In this document: piece by piece, positions 15,879-55,746 of the stretch
Position numbering within the stretch: position 1 is the stretch's first letter
How the letters are laid out: each line of letters starts with the position of its first letter
Source: an archaeon
Lineage (GTDB): Archaea; SpSt-1190; DYHY01
Length of the DNA stretch: 64,000 bases
Assembly (NCBI GenBank): GCA_037442745.1
Contig: JBBIPP010000004.1
Coordinates: 1 to 64,000, forward strand
Reading direction: 5' to 3'
The notes under the pieces: generated by a model
Database searches by the model: none
Seen by the model: the letters and a program-made list of their open reading frames with translations, nothing else
Told to the model about the DNA's origin: nothing
Made by a program: the position numbers and the translations under genes

Positions 15879-15955
15879 TGGTGGGGCGAGAGGGATTTGA
15901 ACCCCCGACCTCCAACCCCCGAAGCTGGCATCATACCAAGCTAGACCATCGCCCC
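15879..15955 (-). tRNA. tRNA-Pro(CGG), CCA encoded
   Basis: GGGGCGATGGTCTAGCTTGG..., anticodon loop TTCGGGG, GGTTCAAATCC, CGCCCCACCA. Confidence 0.95.
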
Positions 15956-36446: not shown

Positions 36447-36564
36447 TGTCAGCGGCCAAAGGTTCCGGGCAAGACCCGTTCCCATCCCGAACACGGAAGT
36501 GAATCCGGAACGCGAATGTGGCTGTACTGCCCTTTGTGGCGGGAACCCACGTGCGTTGCTGACA
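36447..36564 (+). rRNA. rrf: 5S rRNA (unlinked)
   Basis: GCGGCCA..., ACCCGTTCCCATCCCGAACACGGAAGTGAA core; terminal helix TGTCAGC/GCTGACA. Confidence 0.92.
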
Positions 36565-41088: not shown

Positions 41089-41301
41089 TTATTTGTCTTC
41101 TTTTGATGCGCTCATTGCGAAAACAATTAGCCCGACAATTCCTGCGGCAACAAGCCCGTATGTAATGAATTGGCCTGAGAAGTTTATTCCTTCTAGGCCG
41201 AAAATAGTTTTCCATCCGGGCGTTGTAACAACCAGAAGCAATACTATTCCAAGAGCCCCTATCAGTACCAGTTTCTTGTCAAAAATCGGTGCGTCTCCCA
41301 T
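41089..41301 (-). CDS. Small 2-TM membrane protein (homologous to the C-half of 41818..42357)
   Basis: P.W..IFG......I..G.V.G.VGLI...MS motif shared with that protein. Confidence 0.75.
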   Translation of the reverse strand: MGDAPIFDKKLVLIGALGIVLLLVVTTPGWKTIFGLEGINFSGQFITYGLVAAGIVGLIVFAMSASKEDK

Positions 41302-41308
41302 ATTGTTT

Positions 41309-41327
41309 CTCTCTCTCTCTCTCTCTC
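41309..41327. repeat. (CT)9 microsatellite in the ribosome-binding region
   Basis: On the coding strand AAGG(AG)n lies 7 nt before the ATG at 41301. Confidence 0.85.
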
Positions 41328-41422
41328 CTTCATTTTGTTTTATCTACATTTCTTGACCGGCTTCGCCGGATCTCACTTCGTTCTAGTTCGGAACCTCGGA
41401 TTTTCTCTCCTAGGCTCTTAAT

Positions 41423-41743
41423 TTACTCTTTGTTCGCGTTGTTGTTAACGAAGGCATTAACAACAAGGACAATCAGGACAATTATCAGAATAACTCCGGC
41501 TTTCCCTAGTAGCCAAGACAAAAATTCACCGACAATTGGCATGCTTGCGAGGAATAGGGTTGCGACAAGGGCGGATACTGCCGAAATTGCGGCAGCAAGC
41601 CAGACTTCATCAATTACTCCGGAGCTCTTGAGGACAACGAACATCACCAAGAAAATCAGGACGAACGGCAATATTACCGAATAAACTCCCTGCTGTACTG
41701 CCTGATCAATCACTCCTTCAATTGCATTCGCAAATAGGTACAT
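41423..41743 (-). CDS. 3-TM membrane protein, ILPF family (homologous to the N-half of 41818..42357)
   Basis: QG.Y..ILPFVLIF..MF.VL...G..., VG.FLS...GK motifs; start taken at MYLF. Confidence 0.75.
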   Translation of the reverse strand: MYLFANAIEGVIDQAVQQGVYSVILPFVLIFLVMFVVLKSSGVIDEVWLAAAISAVSALVATLFLASMPIVGEFLSWLLGKAGVILIIVLIVLVVNAFVNNNANKE

Positions 41744-41817
41744 GTTCTTTTTTTCCCTCACTTTGTTTTATCCATATTCTTTGGTTCGGAACCTCGGGTT
41801 TACGCCCATCGGCTCCT

Positions 41818-42357
41818 TTAGCTTCCATTTGGCTTGTCGTCGCCTTTGCTCATAATTATTGCGACTAGGCCAACTAGCCCTGCGACAACTCCGACTGTCA
41901 CAAGGGCGTTGTTGTCAATGTTAAAGTCCGCTCCGAATAGTATCTGCCATGTGTTCGGGCTCGAATTGAGCGCGAATACAACAAGTAGGACCGCTCCCCC
42001 GAAAATGACTAGCCCGTATTTCCACTCTTCCCCTTTTCTTATGAAATCGGTCGCGTTTTTCATGACATTGTAGACGAACATTGTTATCATCAGGGTGAAC
42101 ATCAGGACAATTATTGTCAGAAAGCCCTTTCCGGAGAATATTGAGAGGAAACGGCCAACCTGATAGACTCTTGCGAAATAAAGCACGAATAGGCCGAGAA
42201 TCATTGAAACAATTGCGTCAATCCCAGGCTTCCCTCCGAGAATCTTCGCCTGCTGGAGTATTGCATAGATTACAAAGAACGCCAATAGGAAAGGCAGGAC
42301 ATAGTCGAAGAACCCCTGCGCAACCAGATTAGCTATTGTTTCGTCAACGAATGCCAT
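41818..42357 (-). CDS. 5-TM membrane protein, ILPF family
   Basis: GFFDYVLPFLLAFFVIYAILQQAKILG...IDAIVS. Confidence 0.8.
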   Translation of the reverse strand: MAFVDETIANLVAQGFFDYVLPFLLAFFVIYAILQQAKILGGKPGIDAIVSMILGLFVLYFARVYQVGRFLSIFSGKGFLTIIVLMFTLMITMFVYNVMKNATDFIRKGEEWKYGLVIFGGAVLLVVFALNSSPNTWQILFGADFNIDNNALVTVGVVAGLVGLVAIIMSKGDDKPNGS

Positions 42358-42382
42358 TTTTGTATTTCATTTCCCCCATTTT

Positions 42383-42721
42383 CTATATATTATGCTTTTC
42401 CCCGTCAATATACCGCTCAATAAGGCCTCCCAAATGTATGTGCTTGGCATAGACCCGGATTGCCCATAACTCCCTCGCAATTGAGAGTAGCAAGAGGACA
42501 AAGAGCCAAGGAAAGACAAATGTCCGGAATATTGATAGAAGCTCGGTGACTCTCGAAGCTTCCCCGGAAAAGAAGGAAACAACAACCAAAATGGACAGGA
42601 GAACAGTTGCAATTGTAGATGCGATCGCCAGCCTGTCCGAACCCTCCTTGAACTGCGCGAAATTTGTGTGGGTGCCTTGTGAGCCGGTTTTTGGTTGTTT
42701 TTTTGCCATTTTATTTTTCAA
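42383..42721 (-). CDS. 2-TM membrane protein (paralogue of 47567..47923)
   Basis: LLS.ARELWAIRVY..H motif. Confidence 0.75.
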   Translation of the reverse strand: MKNKMAKKQPKTGSQGTHTNFAQFKEGSDRLAIASTIATVLLSILVVVSFFSGEASRVTELLSIFRTFVFPWLFVLLLLSIARELWAIRVYAKHIHLGGLIERYIDGEKHNI

Positions 42722-43235
42722 ACATTTTTATGTCTTTGAATTGGGACTTGCTCGGAGCATCTGAGCCCAAGAACGAGCCGATATTGTCAAGATAAGTAAG
42801 TCCAGAGTCAATTTCCATTCCTGCTTTGTTGATGTCTTGGGCGAACCGGAATCCCCATAGGAAATGCCCAATTGTCCACCAGAAAGCCATAAGAATGAAT
42901 ATCAGAGTCAGCATTGGTATCCAGACACCAGAACCGGTTGCCGAGCTTCCGAGAAAAGTCTGGAGCATCTGGACTACCTGCCAATATACCCCGAACCGAG
43001 CCCCGAAAAGGGAGAATATTATTGCAATCCACATTGCAGTTGTTTTCCTGAAAAAGCCCATCAGATAAATAAAGTCGTAGAGAATGAAGAACATAAGGAC
43101 GCCCGGCAGGATGTATGCGAAAATAACAGTTGACATCGGACTCCCTGTTGTTCCCAAAAGAATGTTTATTATTGAGAGGACGAACCCTCCAATGTCGTTA
43201 ATTACGCTAACAATTGTCCCTGCATCAAATGCCAT
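42711..43235 (-). CDS. Tandem membrane paralogue, copy 1
   Basis: YILPGVLMFFILYDFIYLMGFFRKTTAMWIAIIF core with a unique C-tail; SD GGAGG. Confidence 0.85.
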   Translation of the reverse strand: MAFDAGTIVSVINDIGGFVLSIINILLGTTGSPMSTVIFAYILPGVLMFFILYDFIYLMGFFRKTTAMWIAIIFSLFGARFGVYWQVVQMLQTFLGSSATGSGVWIPMLTLIFILMAFWWTIGHFLWGFRFAQDINKAGMEIDSGLTYLDNIGSFLGSDAPSKSQFKDIKMFEK

Positions 43236-44210
43236 TGTCTTTTCCTCCTATTATTTCTCACCCAATTTTTCAAGCCGTGTCCCAATTGTCTTGAGTAAAT
43301 GAAGTGCAGCCCCCTGTTTGTGCTGTTCGGTTGCGACTGCTTGAGCGAACCGGAATCCCCATAGGAAATGCCCAATTGTCCACCAGAAAGCAATCAAAAT
43401 GAATATCAGAGTCAGCATTGGTATCCAGACACCAGAACCGGTTGCCGAGCTTCCGAGAAAAGTCTGGAGCATCTGGACTACCTGCCAATATACCCCGAAC
43501 CGAGCCCCGAAAAGGGAGAATATTATTGCAATCCACATTGCAGTTGTTTTCCTGAAAAAGCCCATCAGATAAATAAAGTCGTAGAGAATGAAGAACATAA
43601 GGACGCCCGGCAGGATGTATGCGAAAATAACAGTTGACATCGGACTCCCTGTTGTTCCCAAAAGGACGTTGATTATTGTTAGCAAAAACCCGCCAATATC
43701 GTTCAGAAAGCCATTTATTGTCCCAGCATCCAATGCCATATCTTCTTTCTCCTTTTATTTAGATCCCAATTGTTCTAGACGGCTTCCAATCCTGTCAAGA
43801 ACACCGATTGCACTCTCTATTTTGTCGCTTTCCTTGTAAACAGCACTGGCAAACCGGAATCCCCATAGGAAATGCCCAATTGTCCACCAGAAAGCCATAA
43901 GAATGAATATCAGAGTCAGCATTGGTATCCAGACACCAGAACCGGTTGCCGAGCTTCCGAGAAAAGTCTGGAGCATCTGGACTACCTGCCAATATACCCC
44001 GAACCGAGCCCCGAAAAGGGAGAATATTATTGCAATCCACATTGCAGTTGTTTTCCTGAAAAAGCCCATCAGATAAATAAAGTCGTAGAGAATGAAGAAC
44101 ATAAGGACGCCCGGCAGGATGTATGCGAAAATAACAGTTGACATCGGACTCCCTGTTGTTCCCAAAAGGACGTTGATTATTGTTAGCAAAAACCCGCCAA
44201 TATCGTTCAG
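42843..44210. repeat. Three near-identical ~315-360 bp cores at an exact 504-bp period
   Basis: CCGGAATCCCCATAGG at 42846, 43350 and 43854. Confidence 0.95.
43251..43739 (-). CDS. Tandem membrane paralogue, copy 2
   Basis: Same core with LIAF variant and a unique C-tail; SD AAGGAG. Confidence 0.85.
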   Translation of the reverse strand: MALDAGTINGFLNDIGGFLLTIINVLLGTTGSPMSTVIFAYILPGVLMFFILYDFIYLMGFFRKTTAMWIAIIFSLFGARFGVYWQVVQMLQTFLGSSATGSGVWIPMLTLIFILIAFWWTIGHFLWGFRFAQAVATEQHKQGAALHLLKTIGTRLEKLGEK

Positions 44211-44243
44211 AATGCTTACGAATGTCCCCGAATTTATTGCCAT
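43755..44243 (-). CDS. Tandem membrane paralogue, copy 3
   Basis: Same core with unique N- and C-termini; SD AAGGAG. Confidence 0.85.
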   Translation of the reverse strand: MAINSGTFVSILNDIGGFLLTIINVLLGTTGSPMSTVIFAYILPGVLMFFILYDFIYLMGFFRKTTAMWIAIIFSLFGARFGVYWQVVQMLQTFLGSSATGSGVWIPMLTLIFILMAFWWTIGHFLWGFRFASAVYKESDKIESAIGVLDRIGSRLEQLGSK

Positions 44244-44401
44244 TTTCTCTTTTCTCCTTTTTTGATTATTTATTCGGCCAGTTCCCTTTATTTTCTCTTT
44301 CTAGCATTTATAGTTTGCCGATTTAAGGGCAGTGTCCAAATAACAGCAACCCCAAAATCCTTAATGGTATTACCACTCGATAATTTATATAGTTTCCCAT
44401 C

Positions 44402-44962
44402 TTATTTGAACTTGCTGAAAGCTGGAGCCCAGCCAGAACTTCTCTCAGCCTTTTGGGAATTGACAATTGACTGCTTGTTTGAGCCCTCCCTGTTCCCGAG
44501 CCGTGCAGCAGTCTGACCAATCAGGGTCAATATCTGCCCGCCCCCCGAGAGCTCAGCCAAGCCCTTGGAAGCTGCCCTGGCAGTGACAAACCCTATGAAG
44601 AAATTGCTCATGAACCAATAGACAATCACGAAAGTGAAGACTGTTATGAACATTGCAATGAATAGTCCTGTTTCCCCGAAAATCGGCTCTAAAAAGAGGG
44701 AGTTAACGAATGTGTTATAGTCGTCATAAAATCCGAAATGGGCGAACATTAGGGCGAAGACCGCAGCCATTACTGTTGCGGTTATTTTCCTGAAAAACCC
44801 CATCAGATAGAAGAGGTCTTCCAGCGTGAAAAAGACGAGGAGCGCAGGAATTGCATAGAGGAAAATTATCTCATACCAAGGCTGTCCCTTGCCCCCGAAA
44901 ATCATGTTGAAAATTGTCCAGAAGAATTCCGGGACATTGAAATAAAGTTCCTCTCCTGCCAT
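44402..44962 (-). CDS. Divergent paralogue of the tandem membrane proteins
   Basis: YAIPALLVFFTLEDLFYLMGFFRKITA...FG.Y...W....F..GF...L..IG....LG. Confidence 0.82.
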   Translation of the reverse strand: MAGEELYFNVPEFFWTIFNMIFGGKGQPWYEIIFLYAIPALLVFFTLEDLFYLMGFFRKITATVMAAVFALMFAHFGFYDDYNTFVNSLFLEPIFGETGLFIAMFITVFTFVIVYWFMSNFFIGFVTARAASKGLAELSGGGQILTLIGQTAARLGNREGSNKQSIVNSQKAERSSGWAPAFSKFK

Positions 44963-46800
44963 TATTTGTTCCCCCCGAATTTCGAGCCCAAGTTCCTGAA
45001 GAATCCGCCAATCGAATTCTTTGCCGCCCCCAGCACTCCTGCTGGAACAACCCCGATGTCCTTGTTAATGTTGGCGTATTTCCACTTTTCCTGCTGGTTA
45101 GGAGTCATGGTTTTTCCTTGCCAAGGATTCACCGACTTAATCCGGGTTGTCCAAGAGTCTTTTGCCTTTTCAACAGAGCCACCTATCTCGTCAGTAACAT
45201 CCCCGAACTTGTCTTTTCCTTTCGAGACTTTCTGGGAAATCTTGCCATATGCGCTCGTGCTCTTGATCATTCCGAGGATGAATTTTGGAAGAACGGTTAC
45301 TGGGAGAGTGAGATAGAGGAAAAGCACCCTTATTCCGATTGAAGTCACTATAAGGAGAAGGTAGAAGAGCGCGGCAACTATTGCGTTCATGAAGAGGTCC
45401 AGTGGGTTTGCTGGGACGGCTGTCCCTGAAAGGGGTTTTGCCAAGGAAACAATATAGAGGGTTCCCAAGAACTGGAATGCGAGCCGAATAAGGGAATTTA
45501 GGACAGGTATTGGTCCTCCGTTGAAGGGCAAAAGTATCCAAATAACTACTGGTCTTGGAAGGAAGACTGCCAGGAGAAAGACAGACTTTTCCACAGCGAA
45601 TGCGACAATCTGCCACATCCAGAACGCCCAAAAAGTCGCGGGGATTATTGATGCCCAGATGTTGACGCAGCTCGTCGGCTCCCTTACCGGAATATATTCG
45701 TAATAGGACGCAATTCCGAAAATATTCATGCTTGTTGCAAAAGCCACTACAAGAAGAAAGATCCACACATATCCGAGCTCAATTACTGAAAATGCCCTGA
45801 AAACGTCGTATATTGTGGATTTTATAGCTTCCCTTCCGGCAATGGCGCCCTTCTTCGCTCGGAGGCGCTCTGACGCGTCATTGCTTTTGCTTGCGCCGTC
45901 ACCGGCGCCTCCGGCAACTCCTCCCATCAGCCGATCGTCAACTCCGGGAATTCCGGTAGATTTGTCCAAGAACTGGTCGGCAAGATGCGTTGCTTTCTGG
46001 ACGAAACTGAGCTCGTCATAGTCGCTGTCCGCAGTTGCCGCGACATCGAGAATTCTCGAGTATTCAGTATCTCCTATTGTGCTTTGGATTACTTCCTTTG
46101 CAAATGTTGCCTTCCAATTGTCCGGCTCGAGGAATTCTTTTTGCAAGTCCTCCGGAGGAGCGGCAAGGGTCTCGAAAAGTATTATCAGGAAAAGAATCCA
46201 TCCGAAAAGAATCCATGCGGCAATGTTTGTCGATAGGGTGAATATCACAAAAAAAAGCGCAGCAACTATCTTTATCCAAGACGCATTTTTGAAAGCGAAA
46301 CGCCCTAGAATCATCAGGACAATCCCGATTCCGAGGAAAACATAAGAGAGTTCTTTGCTCACATTTATTAGGGGCCTGTCATAATCCGGTCCGCACGCAT
46401 TCTCAAGCTCGTTTTCCGAAATCCCATAGCTCTCGACAACCCTCGGGCCAAAGTTCTCCGGCGGTTTAGCTGGCAGATTGTCCCATTCCCTTGCGGATTG
46501 CGTTATCTGCCCGAAAAGTGGGGCAATTCCTTTGTCCCAGAATGTCTGAAGTATGCCAAAGAAGCTGTTGTCGCCTACCGAAGAAAAGTCGAGGCAAAGG
46601 CCGGTTGTTGTGCAGGATTCGGGGGTTCCTCCCGTAAGGCCGGACTCTCCGGAAGGATCTCCCCCGTCAATCGGGGAAAGAAGAGGGTCCTCTGAGAATG
46701 CCGGGGCAGGCGAAAGAGCAAGAATGAAAACAAGGGTTAGGATGGGGAAAATTTTCCAAATGCTCGAGAATTCCCATCTCATTTTCCGGGAAGCCCCCAT
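44962..46800 (-). CDS. Large secreted multi-TM membrane protein (~610 aa)
   Basis: Signal peptide (PAFS), Cys-containing exterior segment, about 9 TM helices, basic cytoplasmic tail; start taken at MGASRK. Confidence 0.78.
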   Translation of the reverse strand: MGASRKMRWEFSSIWKIFPILTLVFILALSPAPAFSEDPLLSPIDGGDPSGESGLTGGTPESCTTTGLCLDFSSVGDNSFFGILQTFWDKGIAPLFGQITQSAREWDNLPAKPPENFGPRVVESYGISENELENACGPDYDRPLINVSKELSYVFLGIGIVLMILGRFAFKNASWIKIVAALFFVIFTLSTNIAAWILFGWILFLIILFETLAAPPEDLQKEFLEPDNWKATFAKEVIQSTIGDTEYSRILDVAATADSDYDELSFVQKATHLADQFLDKSTGIPGVDDRLMGGVAGGAGDGASKSNDASERLRAKKGAIAGREAIKSTIYDVFRAFSVIELGYVWIFLLVVAFATSMNIFGIASYYEYIPVREPTSCVNIWASIIPATFWAFWMWQIVAFAVEKSVFLLAVFLPRPVVIWILLPFNGGPIPVLNSLIRLAFQFLGTLYIVSLAKPLSGTAVPANPLDLFMNAIVAALFYLLLIVTSIGIRVLFLYLTLPVTVLPKFILGMIKSTSAYGKISQKVSKGKDKFGDVTDEIGGSVEKAKDSWTTRIKSVNPWQGKTMTPNQQEKWKYANINKDIGVVPAGVLGAAKNSIGGFFRNLGSKFGGNK

Positions 46801-46819
46801 ATCTGTCTTTTTTAGCTCT

Positions 46820-46840
46820 TTCCAATATAAATAATGTCTC
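46820..46840. promoter_or_regulatory. Putative bidirectional TATA element between the divergent membrane operons
   Basis: AATATAAATA between the starts at 46800 (-) and 46900 (+). Confidence 0.45.
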
Positions 46841-46899
46841 CCGAGTGGGAAAATTGGCAAAGTATAAAAGTAAGATTTTCCCGAGAGTCCCAGTCAAAC

Positions 46900-47550
46900 A
46901 TGGCGAAAGGCAGGGGATTATTTTCAAGAATTGCCGGGCGAAAGGGGGAAGGCGACAACGATGTTTTCATGTATGCTTTCATTGTTGTCTTGCTGGTTGC
47001 TGTAGGGACTTATGCAAGCAATTCAGGTGTCGGAGGGGTTTTTTTCAGCGCAATTAACAACGCATTTTCCAAGCTCGGTCTGCTTACTTCCTCCTCGTGC
47101 CCTTTCTATAGCAATGTTAATACTGCCGCATGGGCGTGCATTGTTGTTTTCGGGATAATCCCATTCATTATTGTCTATTACTTTACATTTGATGCATTGA
47201 GCTTCACTTTCATGACAACGCGGACAAAGGGAATGCTTTCCCTCGGAGTTTCAATGATTGCAACAGTTCCAATGAACGGACGCTCACTTATTGCGAGCCT
47301 CAGCGCTACTCTTGAGCAGTTTACAGTACTGCTCCTTCCTCCAATTGGTCAAGGAGGACTTGGTAACTGGGGCGGATTCCTTGCAATAATGCTGATAATG
47401 GCGCTTATTTCAGGTTTCTTGGGTCAGCTTGCTCTTACTTCCCAGATGGCGAATGCAGCAGTCCTGTCCCTGCAGGAGACAATATGGGGATACAGGGCAA
47501 TGAACCAGATAGGAAAAGCGGTTACTGCGACTGGAAAGAAAGAAGGTTAG
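46900..47550 (+). CDS. Membrane paralogue of the tandem family
   Basis: IIPFIIVYYFTFDALSF.FM..RTK..LSL core and C-terminal M..IG......GKK helix. Confidence 0.78.
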   Translation: MAKGRGLFSRIAGRKGEGDNDVFMYAFIVVLLVAVGTYASNSGVGGVFFSAINNAFSKLGLLTSSSCPFYSNVNTAAWACIVVFGIIPFIIVYYFTFDALSFTFMTTRTKGMLSLGVSMIATVPMNGRSLIASLSATLEQFTVLLLPPIGQGGLGNWGGFLAIMLIMALISGFLGQLALTSQMANAAVLSLQETIWGYRAMNQIGKAVTATGKKEG

Positions 47551-47566
47551 GGAGCAGTTTCCTGAA

Positions 47567-47923
47567 ATGGCGCCCGCAGTGAAAAAAGGGGAAAAGAAAA
47601 AGCCCTTTGAGACTGCATCAATTTCCCTTTTTCTCGAGCATCTGGACGGCTTTCTTTTATCAGTCCTCAAATACGTCCTCTCGGCAATCCTCCTTTTCTC
47701 CCTTGCAATTGCCCTCTATTCATTCTTCTCCGGAAACGCATGGTCCGACTTTTCAGTTACGCAGGCCGGAGCGAACACAATTTCCGCGGTTGTCGCCCTT
47801 TCGTTGATAATTTTCTGGAGGGAGCTACGGGAACTCCGGCTCTGGCTTGAGGGAATGTCAGAACACCATTCAAGGCATACTTATTCCCGCTTGGATTATT
47901 CCGCAAAAAGGAAGGGGGCATAA
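47567..47923 (+). CDS. 2-TM membrane protein (paralogue of 42383..42721)
   Basis: IIFWRELRELRLW....EHH motif. Confidence 0.75.
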   Translation: MAPAVKKGEKKKPFETASISLFLEHLDGFLLSVLKYVLSAILLFSLAIALYSFFSGNAWSDFSVTQAGANTISAVVALSLIIFWRELRELRLWLEGMSEHHSRHTYSRLDYSAKRKGA

Positions 47924-48672
47924 TGCCAGTTTTTTCTCTCGGGAAATTGGAGAAACTGCAGTTCGTTTCACTTGCCTTGCTTCTCCTCCTTTTGGCTCCT
48001 GCACATTCCGCCACTTCGGGCGCCGCGAACACAGATCTTGTTTCAAAAGGAAGGGGCTTTGCGGACGAGCTCTTTGGCCCGATGTTTGCGCTCCTTGAGC
48101 CTTTCGGATTTGGGGCGAACAACCAGTATTCAATGATCCAATTCCTTGCAGCATTCACGCTGATATTCTTCCTTGTGAAGGAAATTACGCCCGGAACCTC
48201 TGACTTTGCCGCATTCATTGCAACAATGCTAGGAGCTGGCGCAATAAACTTCATTTTCCGGCTGGACTGGTACACTTTCTTGATACATTTCTCCCCTGCT
48301 CTCCTGATGTTTTTCTTCCTTCAGGACATCCTCGCTAGGTTCTCCTTCATGTTCCGGAGCACGGCCAAATGGATTGCCCTCTTCGGAATGATTCTTGTCT
48401 TCTACACAGACTATGCGCTCTTCACTGACAACGGAATTTTTGGATTTTTCTTCAACAAACTGTTCGGGGAAGGGTATTCGTTTTTCCTCGAGCCTTGGTC
48501 AATAATACTTTTCGCGCTTCTTGCGACTCTTGTGCGGATGTTCGGTCTCATTGAGAAGGTCTTCAAGTCTGAGAGCGCTAACCAATACAGGTACCAGATG
48601 CAGGCGGCAGTGAACATTATTCAGCAGGAAGTTGTAAAGGGAGGAATGAAGGACCTTGCAAAGAAAAAGTGA
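47923..48672 (+). CDS. Signal-peptide multi-TM paralogue
   Basis: FSPALLMFFFLQDIL..FSFMFRSTAKWIALF repeats the family motif. Confidence 0.78.
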   Translation: MPVFSLGKLEKLQFVSLALLLLLLAPAHSATSGAANTDLVSKGRGFADELFGPMFALLEPFGFGANNQYSMIQFLAAFTLIFFLVKEITPGTSDFAAFIATMLGAGAINFIFRLDWYTFLIHFSPALLMFFFLQDILARFSFMFRSTAKWIALFGMILVFYTDYALFTDNGIFGFFFNKLFGEGYSFFLEPWSIILFALLATLVRMFGLIEKVFKSESANQYRYQMQAAVNIIQQEVVKGGMKDLAKKK

Positions 48673-48705
48673 GGTTTTTATTCCGGAACAGGAGGGCGTC
48701 TTGCA

Positions 48706-49317
48706 ATGGACCTAATAATCCTCATAATAACCTTGGTCTGCCTAACTACAATAATAAAGCCATTCACATTCCCCGGAGACAGCAATTTCGAGGACGCTTC
48801 GTCAACTCTAGCCATTTTCCTCGGAATCCTCGCCTATTTCTACGGAGTCGATTTCTTCCCGGCAACCTCGTTTTTAGCGCCCCTCCACATTATAACAATA
48901 GGCCTGGTGAACGCATTTTCAATAATAGATCTTTTCATACTGACTATTCTTGGAACCCCCCTGACACTGAACCTCATTTTCGTTGTAATAGTCCCCTCAA
49001 TGGTTGTCTATAAGATTGCAAAGGAGCTCTTCTCATATACGGAGATACTCTCAAAGACAACCGAGAACTTCATTGCATCAATAGTCGCTTTCATCTCAAT
49101 GGTTGCGGCAGTCAGGGGCGACTTTAACCTGATTCAGATTGTCTGGAGCGCTCTCACATATTTGGTGAGCTATGTTACCGGTCAGAGCTCATTATACCTG
49201 ATGACTGTCTCAATAACGGTTATTTCGGTAATTGTTCTTGCAGTTGCCATTGCATTCGAGACAATGACTGTCAAGTTCGTCCTTCTTCTTTCTAACGGTT
49301 CCGCAGAAGCAGAATAG
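48706..49317 (+). CDS. Multi-TM paralogue
   Basis: IVPSMVVYKIAKELFSYTEILSKTTENFIASIV is a variant of the family motif. Confidence 0.75.
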   Translation: MDLIILIITLVCLTTIIKPFTFPGDSNFEDASSTLAIFLGILAYFYGVDFFPATSFLAPLHIITIGLVNAFSIIDLFILTILGTPLTLNLIFVVIVPSMVVYKIAKELFSYTEILSKTTENFIASIVAFISMVAAVRGDFNLIQIVWSALTYLVSYVTGQSSLYLMTVSITVISVIVLAVAIAFETMTVKFVLLLSNGSAEAE

Positions 49318-49449: not shown

Positions 49450-49992
49450 ATGGCAAAACCTGAAAACGCACGTGAGTTGTGGGGGGAAATGTTCGTTAAC
49501 AATGAGGGTATAATTAAGAGGTATGTAAATGATCTTGCAAACTCAGCCAAAGAGTTTCCTTATTATGGAGGTTTGGCGGGATTTTTGGGAGAAGGCGCTT
49601 CAAGAATAGGCAAGGCAGTAAGTTCTTATGCAAGAGGTCCTGTGGCAGCTAAAAAGCCGGCAGAAGGGCCGGCAGAAGGGCCGGCAGAAGGGCCGGCAGA
49701 AGGGCCGGCAAAAACCGATGACGGCCCAGGCGGAGACGTGAAGACTCTCGGCTATAAGGAGATACTTAATCGCCTTGAGGAACTTGCGAGGGGGCAACAG
49801 AATTCTCCTTCCATCCCGTTCACTGCGAAAACTCCCGCTAGTTCGCTCTACAAACCCCAACCGAATGAACCTTCAAAGCTAAATAAGGGACTGGAATATC
49901 TGGCGTTTGTTCTTGGCCCGGACTTTGAAAGTTATGTTCCCCAGCTAAATGATCTCGGAGCACGTGGAGTTATAAAGACGTACCCAATCTAA
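49450..49992 (+). CDS. Hypothetical protein with (PAEG)4 repeat
   Basis: ORF with an AT-rich leader and an internal 12-bp tandem repeat. Confidence 0.7.
   Translation: MAKPENARELWGEMFVNNEGIIKRYVNDLANSAKEFPYYGGLAGFLGEGASRIGKAVSSYARGPVAAKKPAEGPAEGPAEGPAEGPAKTDDGPGGDVKTLGYKEILNRLEELARGQQNSPSIPFTAKTPASSLYKPQPNEPSKLNKGLEYLAFVLGPDFESYVPQLNDLGARGVIKTYPI
49657..49710 (+). repeat. 12-bp tandem repeat CCGGCAGAAGGG x4.5
   Basis: Perfect in-frame tandem copies. Confidence 0.95.
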
Positions 49993-55662: not shown

Positions 55663-55746
55663 TGCAGGAGGAGGGATTCGAACCCACGAAGGCACTAAGC
55701 CACATGGACCTCAACCATGCCCCTTTGACCGCTTGGGTACCCCTGC
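55663..55746 (-). tRNA. tRNA-Leu(GAG)
   Basis: Anticodon stem CATGG/CCATG with loop TTGAGGT; long variable arm; GGTTCGAATCC. Confidence 0.95.

What the first reader, a model, noticed from the sequence alone, without database searches (positions are those of the whole stretch)
41089..49317. Divergent 13-gene array of paralogous membrane proteins: candidate undescribed DPANN membrane machine
Seen: thirteen consecutive genes, all hydrophobic and none with a recognisable enzyme motif, form two divergent operons. At least nine share one helical-hairpin motif, roughly [I/V]-x-P-x5-F-x3-[D/A]-x3-6-[F/I]-x-[R/K]-x-T-A-x2-I-[A/S]: 41423, 41818, 42711, 43251, 43755, 44402, 46900, 47923, 48706. Five also share a C-terminal amphipathic helix L..IG..(L)..LG.K. 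A second small family (RELxxxR) occurs once in each arm (42383, 47567), and a large signal-peptide polytopic protein (44962) heads the left arm. Inference: paralogous hairpin subunits plus one large polytopic partner is how hetero-oligomeric rings and export gates are built (by analogy VirB2/VirB6, CedA1/CedA2/CedA, FliPQR). In a host-dependent archaeon this is a plausible host-contact, secretion or nutrient-channel complex. No ATPase is visible in the locus, so function is unproven.
Basis: partly seen in the sequence, partly recalled or inferred. Interest (0 to 1): 0.88.

Follow-up and report, generated by a model that had tools for sequence, protein, structure and literature searches.

The report
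Membrane-protein array tied to archaeal pilus motor
Thirteen neighbouring genes for small membrane proteins in an Altiarchaeota genome are a real, conserved and unnamed protein superfamily that in many other small-genome archaea lies directly beside the motor genes of a type IV pilus-like machine, so they are probably undescribed membrane parts of that machine.

Summary
Window 41089-49317 carries 13 consecutive membrane-protein genes in two divergent arms, with no Pfam or NCBIfam match.

Profile comparisons join B, C, E1-E4, G and I into one superfamily. J joins it only weakly, and D and H form a second family. Three E genes are a true tandem triplication with an identical core of about 315 nt and divergent ends.

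The cluster is not specific to a host-dependent lineage:
- The whole cluster is syntenic in 3 of 3 other genomes of the family.
- The E family occurs in 16 of 17 Altiarchaeota genomes, including ones of 3.6-3.8 Mb.
- The C/B family occurs in 89 of 401 sampled archaeal genomes, usually as tandem arrays.

The new point is the genomic context.
- All 89 C/B-positive genomes also carry one particular secretion ATPase of about 755 aa.
- In 32 of 55 non-Altiarchaeota genomes with both coordinates listed, the array lies within 10 kb of that ATPase. A T2SSF-type platform protein and a FlaC-like coiled-coil protein lie there too.
- In this genome those motor genes sit on another contig.

Best reading (about 0.5): these are integral-membrane accessory subunits of a DPANN-type type IV filament machine. 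No structure, binding or expression evidence was obtained.

The parts
41089..41301 (-). A: 70-aa protein with two hydrophobic segments. It resembles the C-terminal half of C, so B plus A may be a split C-type unit.
   Evidence: ORF. Hydropathy. blastp to C residues 121-175, E 0.002. hhalign A-C/B 26%. Orthologs sit last in the cluster in G002, G004, G007, G008 and G010.
41423..41761 (-). B: 112-aa member of the C/B family (N-terminal amphipathic helix, conserved Gly, TM1 with an L-P-F motif, two further TM segments).
   Evidence: (B-C E 8e-10).
41818..42357 (-). C: 179-aa C/B-family protein. This is the family found as tandem arrays beside the T4F ATPase in other small archaeal genomes.
   Evidence: 121 proteins at E<=0.001; 89 of 401 genomes.
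42383..42721 (-). D: 112-aa two-TM protein, a paralog of H (the second small family).
   Evidence: D-H 70%; D-like ORFs precede C/B arrays in L068, L081, L082, L083.
42711..44243 (-). E1, E2, E3 (42711-43235, 43251-43739, 43755-44243): a tandem triplication with a 504-nt period. The core of about 315 nt (TM1 to TM3) is identical, while the first ~25 codons and the last ~35 codons diverge.
   Evidence: Contigs of runs X1 and X2 show the 317-nt core at 34.8 against ~13 and at 24.5 against ~9-10 depth, plus single-depth junction pieces.
44402..44962 (-). E4: 186-aa divergent E-family paralog (33-34% identity to E1-E3) with a basic C-terminal tail.
   Evidence: AF2 model pLDDT 72.6, all-helical.
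44962..46800 (-). F: large polytopic protein of about 612 aa. The likely start is the ATG at 46800 or 46782; the longest ORF runs to 46860. It has a signal-like N-terminus, an acidic Cys-containing region, several TM segments and a conserved LPRP...PF.GG motif. It evolves fast.
   Evidence: (found only in its own family, 3 of 3; 33% identity within the genus). AF2 model unusable, pLDDT 35.8.
46801..46899 (.). Divergent intergenic region with two A/T-rich TATA-like boxes (about 46826-46835 and 46863-46869). Each lies 25-35 bp upstream of one of the two first start codons.
   Evidence: Read directly from the sequence. Their role as promoters is inferred, not tested.
46900..47550 (+). G: 216-aa distant E-family member that shares the C-terminal amphipathic helix.
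   Evidence: the E profile hits the G ortholog of G002 at 8.9e-12; E-G 90%.
47567..47923 (+). H: 118-aa paralog of D.
47923..48672 (+). I: 249-aa protein with a signal-like N-terminus and an E-type core in its C-terminal half.
   Evidence: E 1e-4 to E4; E-I 70%.
48706..49317 (+). J: 203-aa polytopic protein, the best conserved of the set (34-56% identity to orthologs). It is only a marginal member of the E superfamily.
   Evidence: E 3.5e-4; E-J 16%.

Best explanation
The 13 genes encode a hetero-oligomeric integral-membrane module built from one diversified superfamily of small polytopic proteins (C/B, E, G, I and perhaps J). It also includes a second small family (D/H) and a lineage-specific large polytopic protein (F).

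The module is the Altiarchaeota-expanded form of a simpler unit found in many small-genome (DPANN-type) archaea: an optional D followed by 2-6 tandem C/B genes. That unit is genomically coupled to a particular type IV filament (T4F) machine. The machine consists of a T2SSE-family ATPase of about 755 aa, a T2SSF-type platform protein of about 720 aa, a FlaC-like coiled-coil protein (K) and a small coiled-coil protein (L).

The most likely role is as membrane-embedded accessory subunits that surround or anchor the platform and ATPase and dock the K/L cytoplasmic scaffold, in the manner of a ring, anchor or stator. Docking could be through their basic cytoplasmic tails, such as the amphipathic C-terminal helix of E and G.

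Shown: paralogy, conservation, phyletic nesting and gene neighbourhood. Inferred: physical association with the T4F machine, topology and role.
For: 1. Real and conserved. All 13 genes have orthologs in the same order in G001, G002 and G003. Core parts of the cluster occur in a second order-level genome, in 3.8-Mb Altiarchaeales and in the small-genome family f3. The E profile is found in 16 of 17 genomes of the phylum.

2. Superfamily links are supported by profile-profile and cross-HMM hits.

3. The C/B profile is found in 89 of 401 sampled archaeal genomes, mostly as tandem arrays. The sources that name these proteins call them 'hypothetical' in Undinarchaeales, Pacearchaeota and Woesearchaeota.

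4. Phyletic nesting. 89 of 89 C/B-positive genomes have an ortholog (E<=1e-80) of the 766-aa ATPase, against 87 of 312 C/B-negative ones. Related genomes are not independent, so the test overstates.

5. Neighbourhood.
- In 20 hand-picked loci, 16 hold the ATPase and 14 hold the platform within the fetched piece (up to 20 kb), and K and/or L lie between the array and the ATPase in most of them.
- In the less selected count, 32 of 55 genomes have the array and the ATPase within 10 kb, 1 has them at 15.8 kb and 22 have them on different contigs.

6. Within Altiarchaeota, K lies beside the membrane cluster in 8 genomes (G002, G004, G005, G007, G010, G013, G014, G015). It lies beside the ATPase in 7 (G000, G001, G002, G003, G004, G006, G008), and beside both in G002 and G004.

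7. Identity of the partners.
- The ATPase hits PF00437 above its cut-off.
- 9 of 14 orthologs of the platform hit PF00482 T2SSF, best E 1.1e-10.
- 7 of 16 K orthologs hit PF05377 FlaC_arch, best E 1.9e-6.
- Pilin-like ORFs follow the platform in G000.
- One Peptidase_A24 prepilin peptidase is present in the genome.
Against: - In this genome the cluster and the ATPase/platform lie on different contigs. In 22 of 55 other genomes they are also on different contigs, and only 2 of 16 Altiarchaeota genomes keep all parts adjacent.
- Gene neighbourhood is not binding, and no structural, interaction or expression evidence was obtained.
- 87 of the 176 genomes with the ATPase lack a detectable C/B match at E<=1e-5, so the module is not obligatory for that ATPase, or it is too diverged to detect.
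- FlaC_arch hits on a coiled-coil protein can be compositional.
- G000's own platform protein hits no Pfam family by itself.
- No known T4F system is described as using small polytopic subunits. Makarova et al. [quoted passage not shown]
Confidence: 0.5

Rival explanations
1. The module is an independent membrane complex, for example a channel, transporter, envelope or lipid-biogenesis factor, or a membrane-stress system. It shares a neighbourhood or regulon with the T4F genes without being part of that machine.
For: - The cluster is detached from the ATPase in G000 and in most Altiarchaeota genomes.
- The E family has an invariant Pro, Asp, Lys and Thr in or next to TM1 and TM2, as ion-conducting proteins often do.
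- 87 genomes with the ATPase have no detected C/B match.
Against: - There is no hit to any transporter, channel or respiratory family in Pfam, NCBIfam or PDB sequences.
- C/B presence is nested 89 of 89 inside the ATPase's distribution.
- Adjacency within 10 kb in 32 of 55 genomes is far more than chance in genomes of about 1 Mb.
- K switches between the two neighbourhoods.
Confidence: 0.28
2. The C/B and E proteins are unusual filament subunits (pilin-like) that are processed by the prepilin peptidase and assembled by the neighbouring ATPase and platform.
For: - They form tandem paralog arrays next to a T4F ATPase, as pilin genes often do.
- A conserved Gly is followed by a hydrophobic helix about 15 residues from the N-terminus: Gly in 53 of 60 sequences.
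- The termini of E1-E3 are variable.
Against: - The leader is acidic (median net charge -1). The residue before the Gly is hydrophobic, not Lys or Arg.
- The proteins have three or more hydrophobic segments and basic C-terminal tails, which fits poorly with extraction into a filament.
- Separate pilin-like ORFs follow the platform gene.
Confidence: 0.08
3. The locus is a conjugation-like or Ced/Ted-like DNA or protein transfer apparatus, with F as a VirB6/TrbL-like channel and the small hairpins as VirB2/VirB3-like subunits.
For: The Atlas feature search for F lists two TrbL/VirB6-named clusters at 0.84 and 0.83. These are below the 0.9 lead level, and the recognition score is low. The architecture of small hairpins plus one large polytopic protein is superficially similar.
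Against: - F has no Pfam hit.
- PF03135 (VirB4/CagE/TrbE) was not found in the 94.5%-complete genome.
- F is confined to one family and is replaced by an unrelated 628-aa protein at the same position in G004.
- Fold searches with the E model gave nothing specific.
Confidence: 0.06
4. The locus is an integrated virus or other mobile element that encodes hydrophobic structural proteins.
For: G has one weak PHROG hit, phrog_21437 'membrane protein', E 1.7e-5. The genes are fast-evolving, small and hydrophobic.
Against: - Gene order, and on one side the flank (the dph5-like and DUF357-like genes), are conserved in another genus (L008).
- The E family is present in 16 of 17 genomes of the phylum.
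- The E family was not found in viral contigs.
- GC content shows no break across the region.
- No integrase or capsid hit was seen.
Confidence: 0.03

Closest known systems
Archaeal type IV filament (T4F/T4P) loci: secretion ATPase (ArlI/PilB, T2SSE) plus platform (ArlJ/TadC, T2SSF) plus accessory proteins such as ArlC/D/E or ArlX
   Same: In relatives and in many small-genome archaea the C/B arrays abut a T2SSE ATPase, a T2SSF platform and a FlaC-like coiled-coil protein. The genome also has a prepilin peptidase and pilin-like genes after the platform.
   Different: - The 13 proteins are polytopic, lack class III signal peptides and match no described T4F accessory family.
- In this genome they are unlinked from the ATPase.
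- PMC13705601 (passages and section 11 read) describes DPANN T4F components as scattered and, in what I read, does not mention such arrays. Its supplementary tables could not be opened.
'Additional membrane proteins' of clade-1 (Epd-type) T4P loci in Methanococci and Thermococci (Makarova et al. 2016, PMC4858521, section 9 read)
   Same: These are uncharacterised membrane proteins recurrently encoded in T4P loci. The Atlas look-alikes of C include a cluster of hypothetical proteins from Methanobacteriota, score 0.91.
   Different: No sequence link was tested. The arCOG identities are in a figure and supplements that I could not see. At E<=1e-5 the C/B profile matched only genomes of 0.6-1.6 Mb plus the Altiarchaeota.
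VirB6/TrbL plus VirB2 (T4SS), and CedA/CedA1/CedA2
   Same: The general layout is one large polytopic protein with several small hydrophobic helical proteins.
   Different: There is no profile hit, no PF03135 ATPase, and only a sub-threshold Atlas lead. F is not conserved beyond one family.
FliP/Q/R-type export gate
   Same: Paralogous helical-hairpin subunits.
   Different: Only noise-level fold rows were found: 8axk_C at E 4.9 and TM 0.30, and 7agx_1C at E 7.2. There is no sequence match.

Membership tests
Type IV filament system (as an accessory module) | T2SSE-family ATPase encoded in or next to the locus | tested here: inconclusive
   Not in the window; G000's copy is on contig C6. It is adjacent in G002 and G004 and lies within 10 kb in 32 of 55 other genomes.
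Type IV filament system (as an accessory module) | T2SSF-type platform protein associated with the ATPase | tested here: met
   9 of 14 orthologs of the ~720-aa protein downstream of the ATPase hit PF00482, best E 1.1e-10. G000's own copy alone gives no hit.
Type IV filament system (as an accessory module) | Physical association of the 13 proteins with the ATPase/platform complex | not testable with these tools
   This needs biochemistry or cryo-ET. The one co-folding job gave no verdict (see Tried and rejected).
Archaeal type IV pilins / archaellins | Class III signal peptide: short basic leader, Lys/Arg at -2, Gly/Ala at -1, then a single hydrophobic helix | tested here: not met
   In 60 C/B sequences the leader is a median 14 aa with net charge -1. 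The residue before the conserved Gly is Leu, Val, Ile or Met in 46 of 60 and Lys/Arg in 1 of 60. The proteins have three or more hydrophobic segments. The definition of the signal is from my own knowledge.
VirB6/TrbL-VirB2 type IV secretion or Ced DNA import | Profile match of the large protein to TrbL/VirB6 | tested here: not met
   Pfam scan of F at E<=1 gave no family. The Atlas lead is only 0.84.
VirB6/TrbL-VirB2 type IV secretion or Ced DNA import | VirB4/CedB-type ATPase in the genome | tested here: inconclusive
   PF03135 was not found in G000, which is 94.5% complete. Other VirB4/HerA-like models were not searched.
FliPQR-type export gate | Fold similarity of the hairpin subunits to FliP/Q/R | tested here: inconclusive
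   Foldseek gave only E 4.9-7.2 and TM 0.30-0.33. VIA wide search gave best Z 7.1 to unrelated helical proteins. The model's pLDDT is 72.6.
Known transporter or respiratory membrane complexes (Mrp, Ech/Mbh, Rnf, ATP synthase c, and similar) | Profile match to any curated family | tested here: not met
   No hit above a cut-off in Pfam or NCBIfam for any of the 13. None of the 48 E-family members scanned hits a recurring Pfam family. PDB profile searches were empty or at noise level.

The most novel reading that the evidence does not exclude
The C/B-E superfamily, together with D/H and the FlaC-like K and L proteins, would be a previously unrecognised class of integral-membrane core components of a DPANN-type type IV filament machine: a membrane ring, stator or conduit. 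This would explain why T4F loci in these archaea look 'incomplete or scattered'. In Altiarchaeota it has expanded to about ten paralogous units plus a large polytopic protein. The cores are kept identical by gene conversion while the termini vary, as if one scaffold were diversified for several partners or surface structures.
Probability: 0.35. Interest if true: 0.75.

Novelty: new variant of a known kind. Interest (0 to 1): 0.6.

Why it matters
DPANN and related small-genome archaea depend on cell-surface machinery, yet their type IV filament loci are described as minimal or scattered (PMC13705601, passages read).

A protein superfamily without any database family is found in 89 of 401 sampled archaeal genomes. 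It is nested entirely within the distribution of one ATPase type and usually lies next to it. That makes it a concrete set of candidate missing parts of that machine.

It gives testable targets for cryo-ET, membrane proteomics and co-purification in the few cultivated DPANN co-cultures and in Altiarchaeum biofilms.

The module is not a marker of host dependence, because large-genome Altiarchaeales carry it too.

Tried and rejected
Structure.
- The AF2 model of F from a 6-row alignment was unusable (pLDDT 35.8).
- The AF2 model of E4 (pLDDT 72.6) found no specific PDB fold. Foldseek gave no row at E<=0.001, and VIA wide search gave best Z 7.1 among unrelated helical proteins.

Co-folding. One job paired G000's platform protein (14-row alignment) with C (alignment A8, built from 60 sequences). 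The tool returned 'no answer': score 0.00 against a mark of 0.32, with controls not run. This is evidence neither for nor against binding.

Sequence searches.
- PDB profile searches with the E, C/B and platform alignments gave nothing meaningful. The K profile gave only generic coiled-coil hits.
- Word-indexed searches with F and E4 found only close orthologs at 80-100% identity.
- F's positional analog in G004 (628 aa) is not detectably homologous: hhalign probability 0.4%.

Viral reading.
- The E family was not found in viral contigs.
- The C/B alignments could not be used there, because the tool found no sufficiently conserved stretch.
- PHROGs gave one weak hit in the 10 proteins scanned.

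Expression. No RNA holder was listed for the region, so nothing can be said about transcription.

Habitat. Two runs of one study labelled 'subsurface metagenome' hold 95-98% of the sampled words, and one of them may be the source of this DNA.

Literature. Full-text searches for a description of these arrays found none.
- PMC13705601: read as passages and section 11.
- PMC4858521: read as passages and section 9.
- PMC8204110: read as passages only.
- Supplementary tables of these papers (arCOG and family lists) could not be opened and may name these families.

Sampling caveat. The 20 loci were chosen by me from genomes with long contigs and/or tandem arrays. The 55-genome count uses every non-Altiarchaeota genome for which both and one search printed coordinates. 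Two C/B-positive genomes whose C/B place was printed (G332, G256) had no printed ATPase place. The remaining non-Altiarchaeota C/B-positive genomes had no C/B place printed. Both groups are left out of the count.

Full report
WHAT IS THERE

The window is contig C4 (bases 1-64000) of a 1.136-Mb, 20-contig genome estimated 94.5% complete. Two related records found with the E-family alignment are titled 'MAG: archaeon' and 'MAG: Candidatus Altiarchaeota archaeon'. GC content is 43-51% with no break at the locus.

Thirteen ORFs lie between 41089 and 49317: nine on the minus strand (A to F) and four on the plus strand (G to J). The two arms diverge from an intergenic region of about 100 bp. That region holds two A/T-rich TATA-like boxes, each 25-35 bp from one of the first start codons. 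This is read from the sequence; promoter function is inferred.

All 13 products have two or more strongly hydrophobic segments. The tails of E, F, G, H and I are basic, which suggests a cytoplasmic C-terminus by the positive-inside rule (inference). The next ORF (49450-49992) is soluble.

None of the 13 reaches a curated threshold in Pfam or NCBIfam. In PHROGs, 10 of the 13 were scanned and gave one weak hit.

PARALOGY

Within the genome alone only two groups are significant: E1-E4 (blastp 1e-22 to 1e-99) and B-C (8e-10). No further paralogs exist elsewhere in the genome.

Profiles built from orthologs extend this:
- E-G 90%
- C/B-E 75.5%
- E-I 70%
- D-H 70%
- G-I 46%
- A to the C-terminal half of C, 26%
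- E-J 16%

Cross-hits of the family HMMs on single ORFs of other genomes agree with these links. So 8 of the 9 'hairpin' members are supported, J is marginal, and the D/H family is supported. A resembles the second half of C (blastp E 0.002), so B plus A may be a split C-type unit. This last point is weak.

THE TRIPLICATION

E1-E3 repeat with a 504-nt period. About 315 nt, covering TM1 to TM3, are identical apart from three changes in E2. The first ~75 nt and the last ~110 nt are strongly diverged.

In contigs of two runs from one study (X1 may be the source sample) the 317-nt core has depth 34.8 against ~13, and 24.5 against ~9-10. The inter-copy junction pieces are present at single-copy depth. 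The triplication is therefore not an assembly artefact.

The sharp boundaries point to gene conversion that keeps the membrane core identical while the termini differ (inference).

CONSERVATION

- F is found only in the window's own family: 3 of 3 other genomes there and 0 of 37 other genomes searched. Identity is only 33% within the genus.
- In those three genomes every one of the 13 genes has an ortholog in the same order.
- In G002 the J-side flank (dph5-like and DUF357-like genes) matches the window.
- The E profile finds 46 cluster representatives at E<=0.001 among 1.84 billion, of which 21 are at <=1e-10. None of the 48 members scanned shares a recurring Pfam family.
- The E profile matches 16 of 17 genomes of the phylum, including two of 3.6-3.8 Mb.
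- A core made of E-like genes, an optional D, then C, B and A recurs in G004, G007, G008 and G010. G-, I- or J-like genes on a divergent arm occur in some of these.

The module is thus a signature of the phylum, not of a reduced or host-bound lineage.

BEYOND THE PHYLUM

The C/B alignment retrieves 121 proteins at E<=0.001. The sources that name them call them 'hypothetical' in Undinarchaeales, Pacearchaeota, Woesearchaeota and unclassified archaea.

In whole genomes the C/B profile matches 89 of 401 sampled relatives at E<=1e-5. Outside Altiarchaeota all matching genomes are 0.6-1.6 Mb, and most carry 2-6 tandem copies.

The Atlas look-alikes of C are clusters of hypothetical archaeal proteins without Pfam families: Methanobacteriota 0.91, Aenigmatarchaeota 0.90 and Nanobdellota 0.90.

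CONTEXT: THE MAIN NEW RESULT

In G002 and G004 the cluster is followed by four genes:
- K, a coiled-coil protein of about 260-345 aa
- L, a coiled-coil protein of about 125 aa
- a 760-aa ATPase that hits PF00437 (T2SSE)
- a large membrane protein

In G000 the orthologs of these lie together on contig C6, followed by ORFs with pilin-like N-termini. G000 has five T2SSE ATPases, one Peptidase_A24 and no PF03135 match.

In 20 loci that I chose around C/B arrays in other phyla:
- 16 contain an ortholog of this ATPase (blastp E = 0 in 15, 2e-125 in one).
- 14 contain the ~720-aa membrane protein.
- K and/or L lie between the array and the ATPase in most.
- D-like genes precede the array in four.

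Using every non-Altiarchaeota genome for which both coordinates were printed, the array and the ATPase lie within 10 kb in 32 of 55, at 15.8 kb in 1, and on different contigs in 22.

All 89 C/B-positive genomes have the ATPase ortholog (E<=1e-80), against 87 of 312 C/B-negative genomes. The Fisher p-value of 8e-40 is overstated, because related genomes are not independent.

The large membrane protein is a T2SSF-type platform: 9 of 14 orthologs hit PF00482. K is FlaC-like: 7 of 16 orthologs hit PF05377. Caution is needed because it is a coiled coil.

Within Altiarchaeota, K sits beside the membrane cluster in 8 genomes and beside the ATPase in 7, and beside both in G002 and G004. This either/or pattern links the three gene sets.

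WHAT IT PROBABLY IS

The best reading is a membrane-embedded accessory module of a DPANN-type type IV filament machine.

The proteins are not pilins. In 60 C/B sequences the leader before the conserved Gly is acidic and the -2 position is hydrophobic. The proteins are polytopic.

How they act is inferred only. The most economical model is a hetero-oligomer around the platform protein. Its cytoplasmic tails would dock the K/L scaffold, comparable in role, not in sequence, to the stator and ring proteins of the archaellum (comparison from my own knowledge).

Rivals are given separately: an independent membrane complex, unusual pilins, a T4SS/Ced-like system, and a mobile element.

LITERATURE

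[quoted passage not shown] The parts I read do not mention such arrays.
- PMC4858521 (2016; passages and section 9 read) notes unassigned membrane proteins in clade-1 loci.
- Five full-text searches found no description of the arrays.
- Supplements were closed and may list these families under arCOG numbers.

VERDICT

The families are undescribed, and the likely machine is a known kind (T4F) with an unrecognised membrane module. Interest is moderate to high; the function remains untested.

Noticed in passing
window 49450-49992 (+), repeat at 49644-49715: This is a soluble 180-aa ORF just downstream of J. It contains a 12-nt tandem repeat that encodes about four copies of P-A-E-G (D4). It has no Pfam hit and no ortholog in the three related loci.
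   Followed up: partly
G000 contig C6 (L085 7727-18294): This is a complete T4F-type locus. It holds K and L on the minus strand, a 766-aa ATPase, a 454-aa coiled-coil ORF on the opposite strand, a 711-aa platform protein, and then five or six small ORFs with pilin-like N-termini. The genome of 1.14 Mb carries five T2SSE ATPases in all.
   Followed up: partly
L031 9227-11113 (G004): At the position of F between the two arms, G004 has an unrelated 628-aa polytopic protein (hhalign probability 0.4%). The 'large partner' slot is kept but its occupant is not.
   Followed up: partly
G003 contigs C19 and C32: E-like and C/B-like matches lie on two contigs: C19:159-617, and C32:14569-16745. Either the cluster is split by the assembly or G003 has a second partial copy.
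   Followed up: no
window 36448-36564; 14-97; 15882-15955; 55663-55746: A 5S rRNA gene and three tRNA genes are present in the window. They are unrelated to the finding.
   Followed up: no
ATPase matches: ATPase orthologs fall into two score classes. One is about 45-57% identity (E 1e-196 to 1e-271) and includes most C/B-positive genomes. The other is 34-43% identity (E 1e-100 to 1e-176) and is mostly in C/B-negative genomes, including genomes of 2-3.4 Mb. The C/B module may track one ATPase subclade.
   Followed up: no
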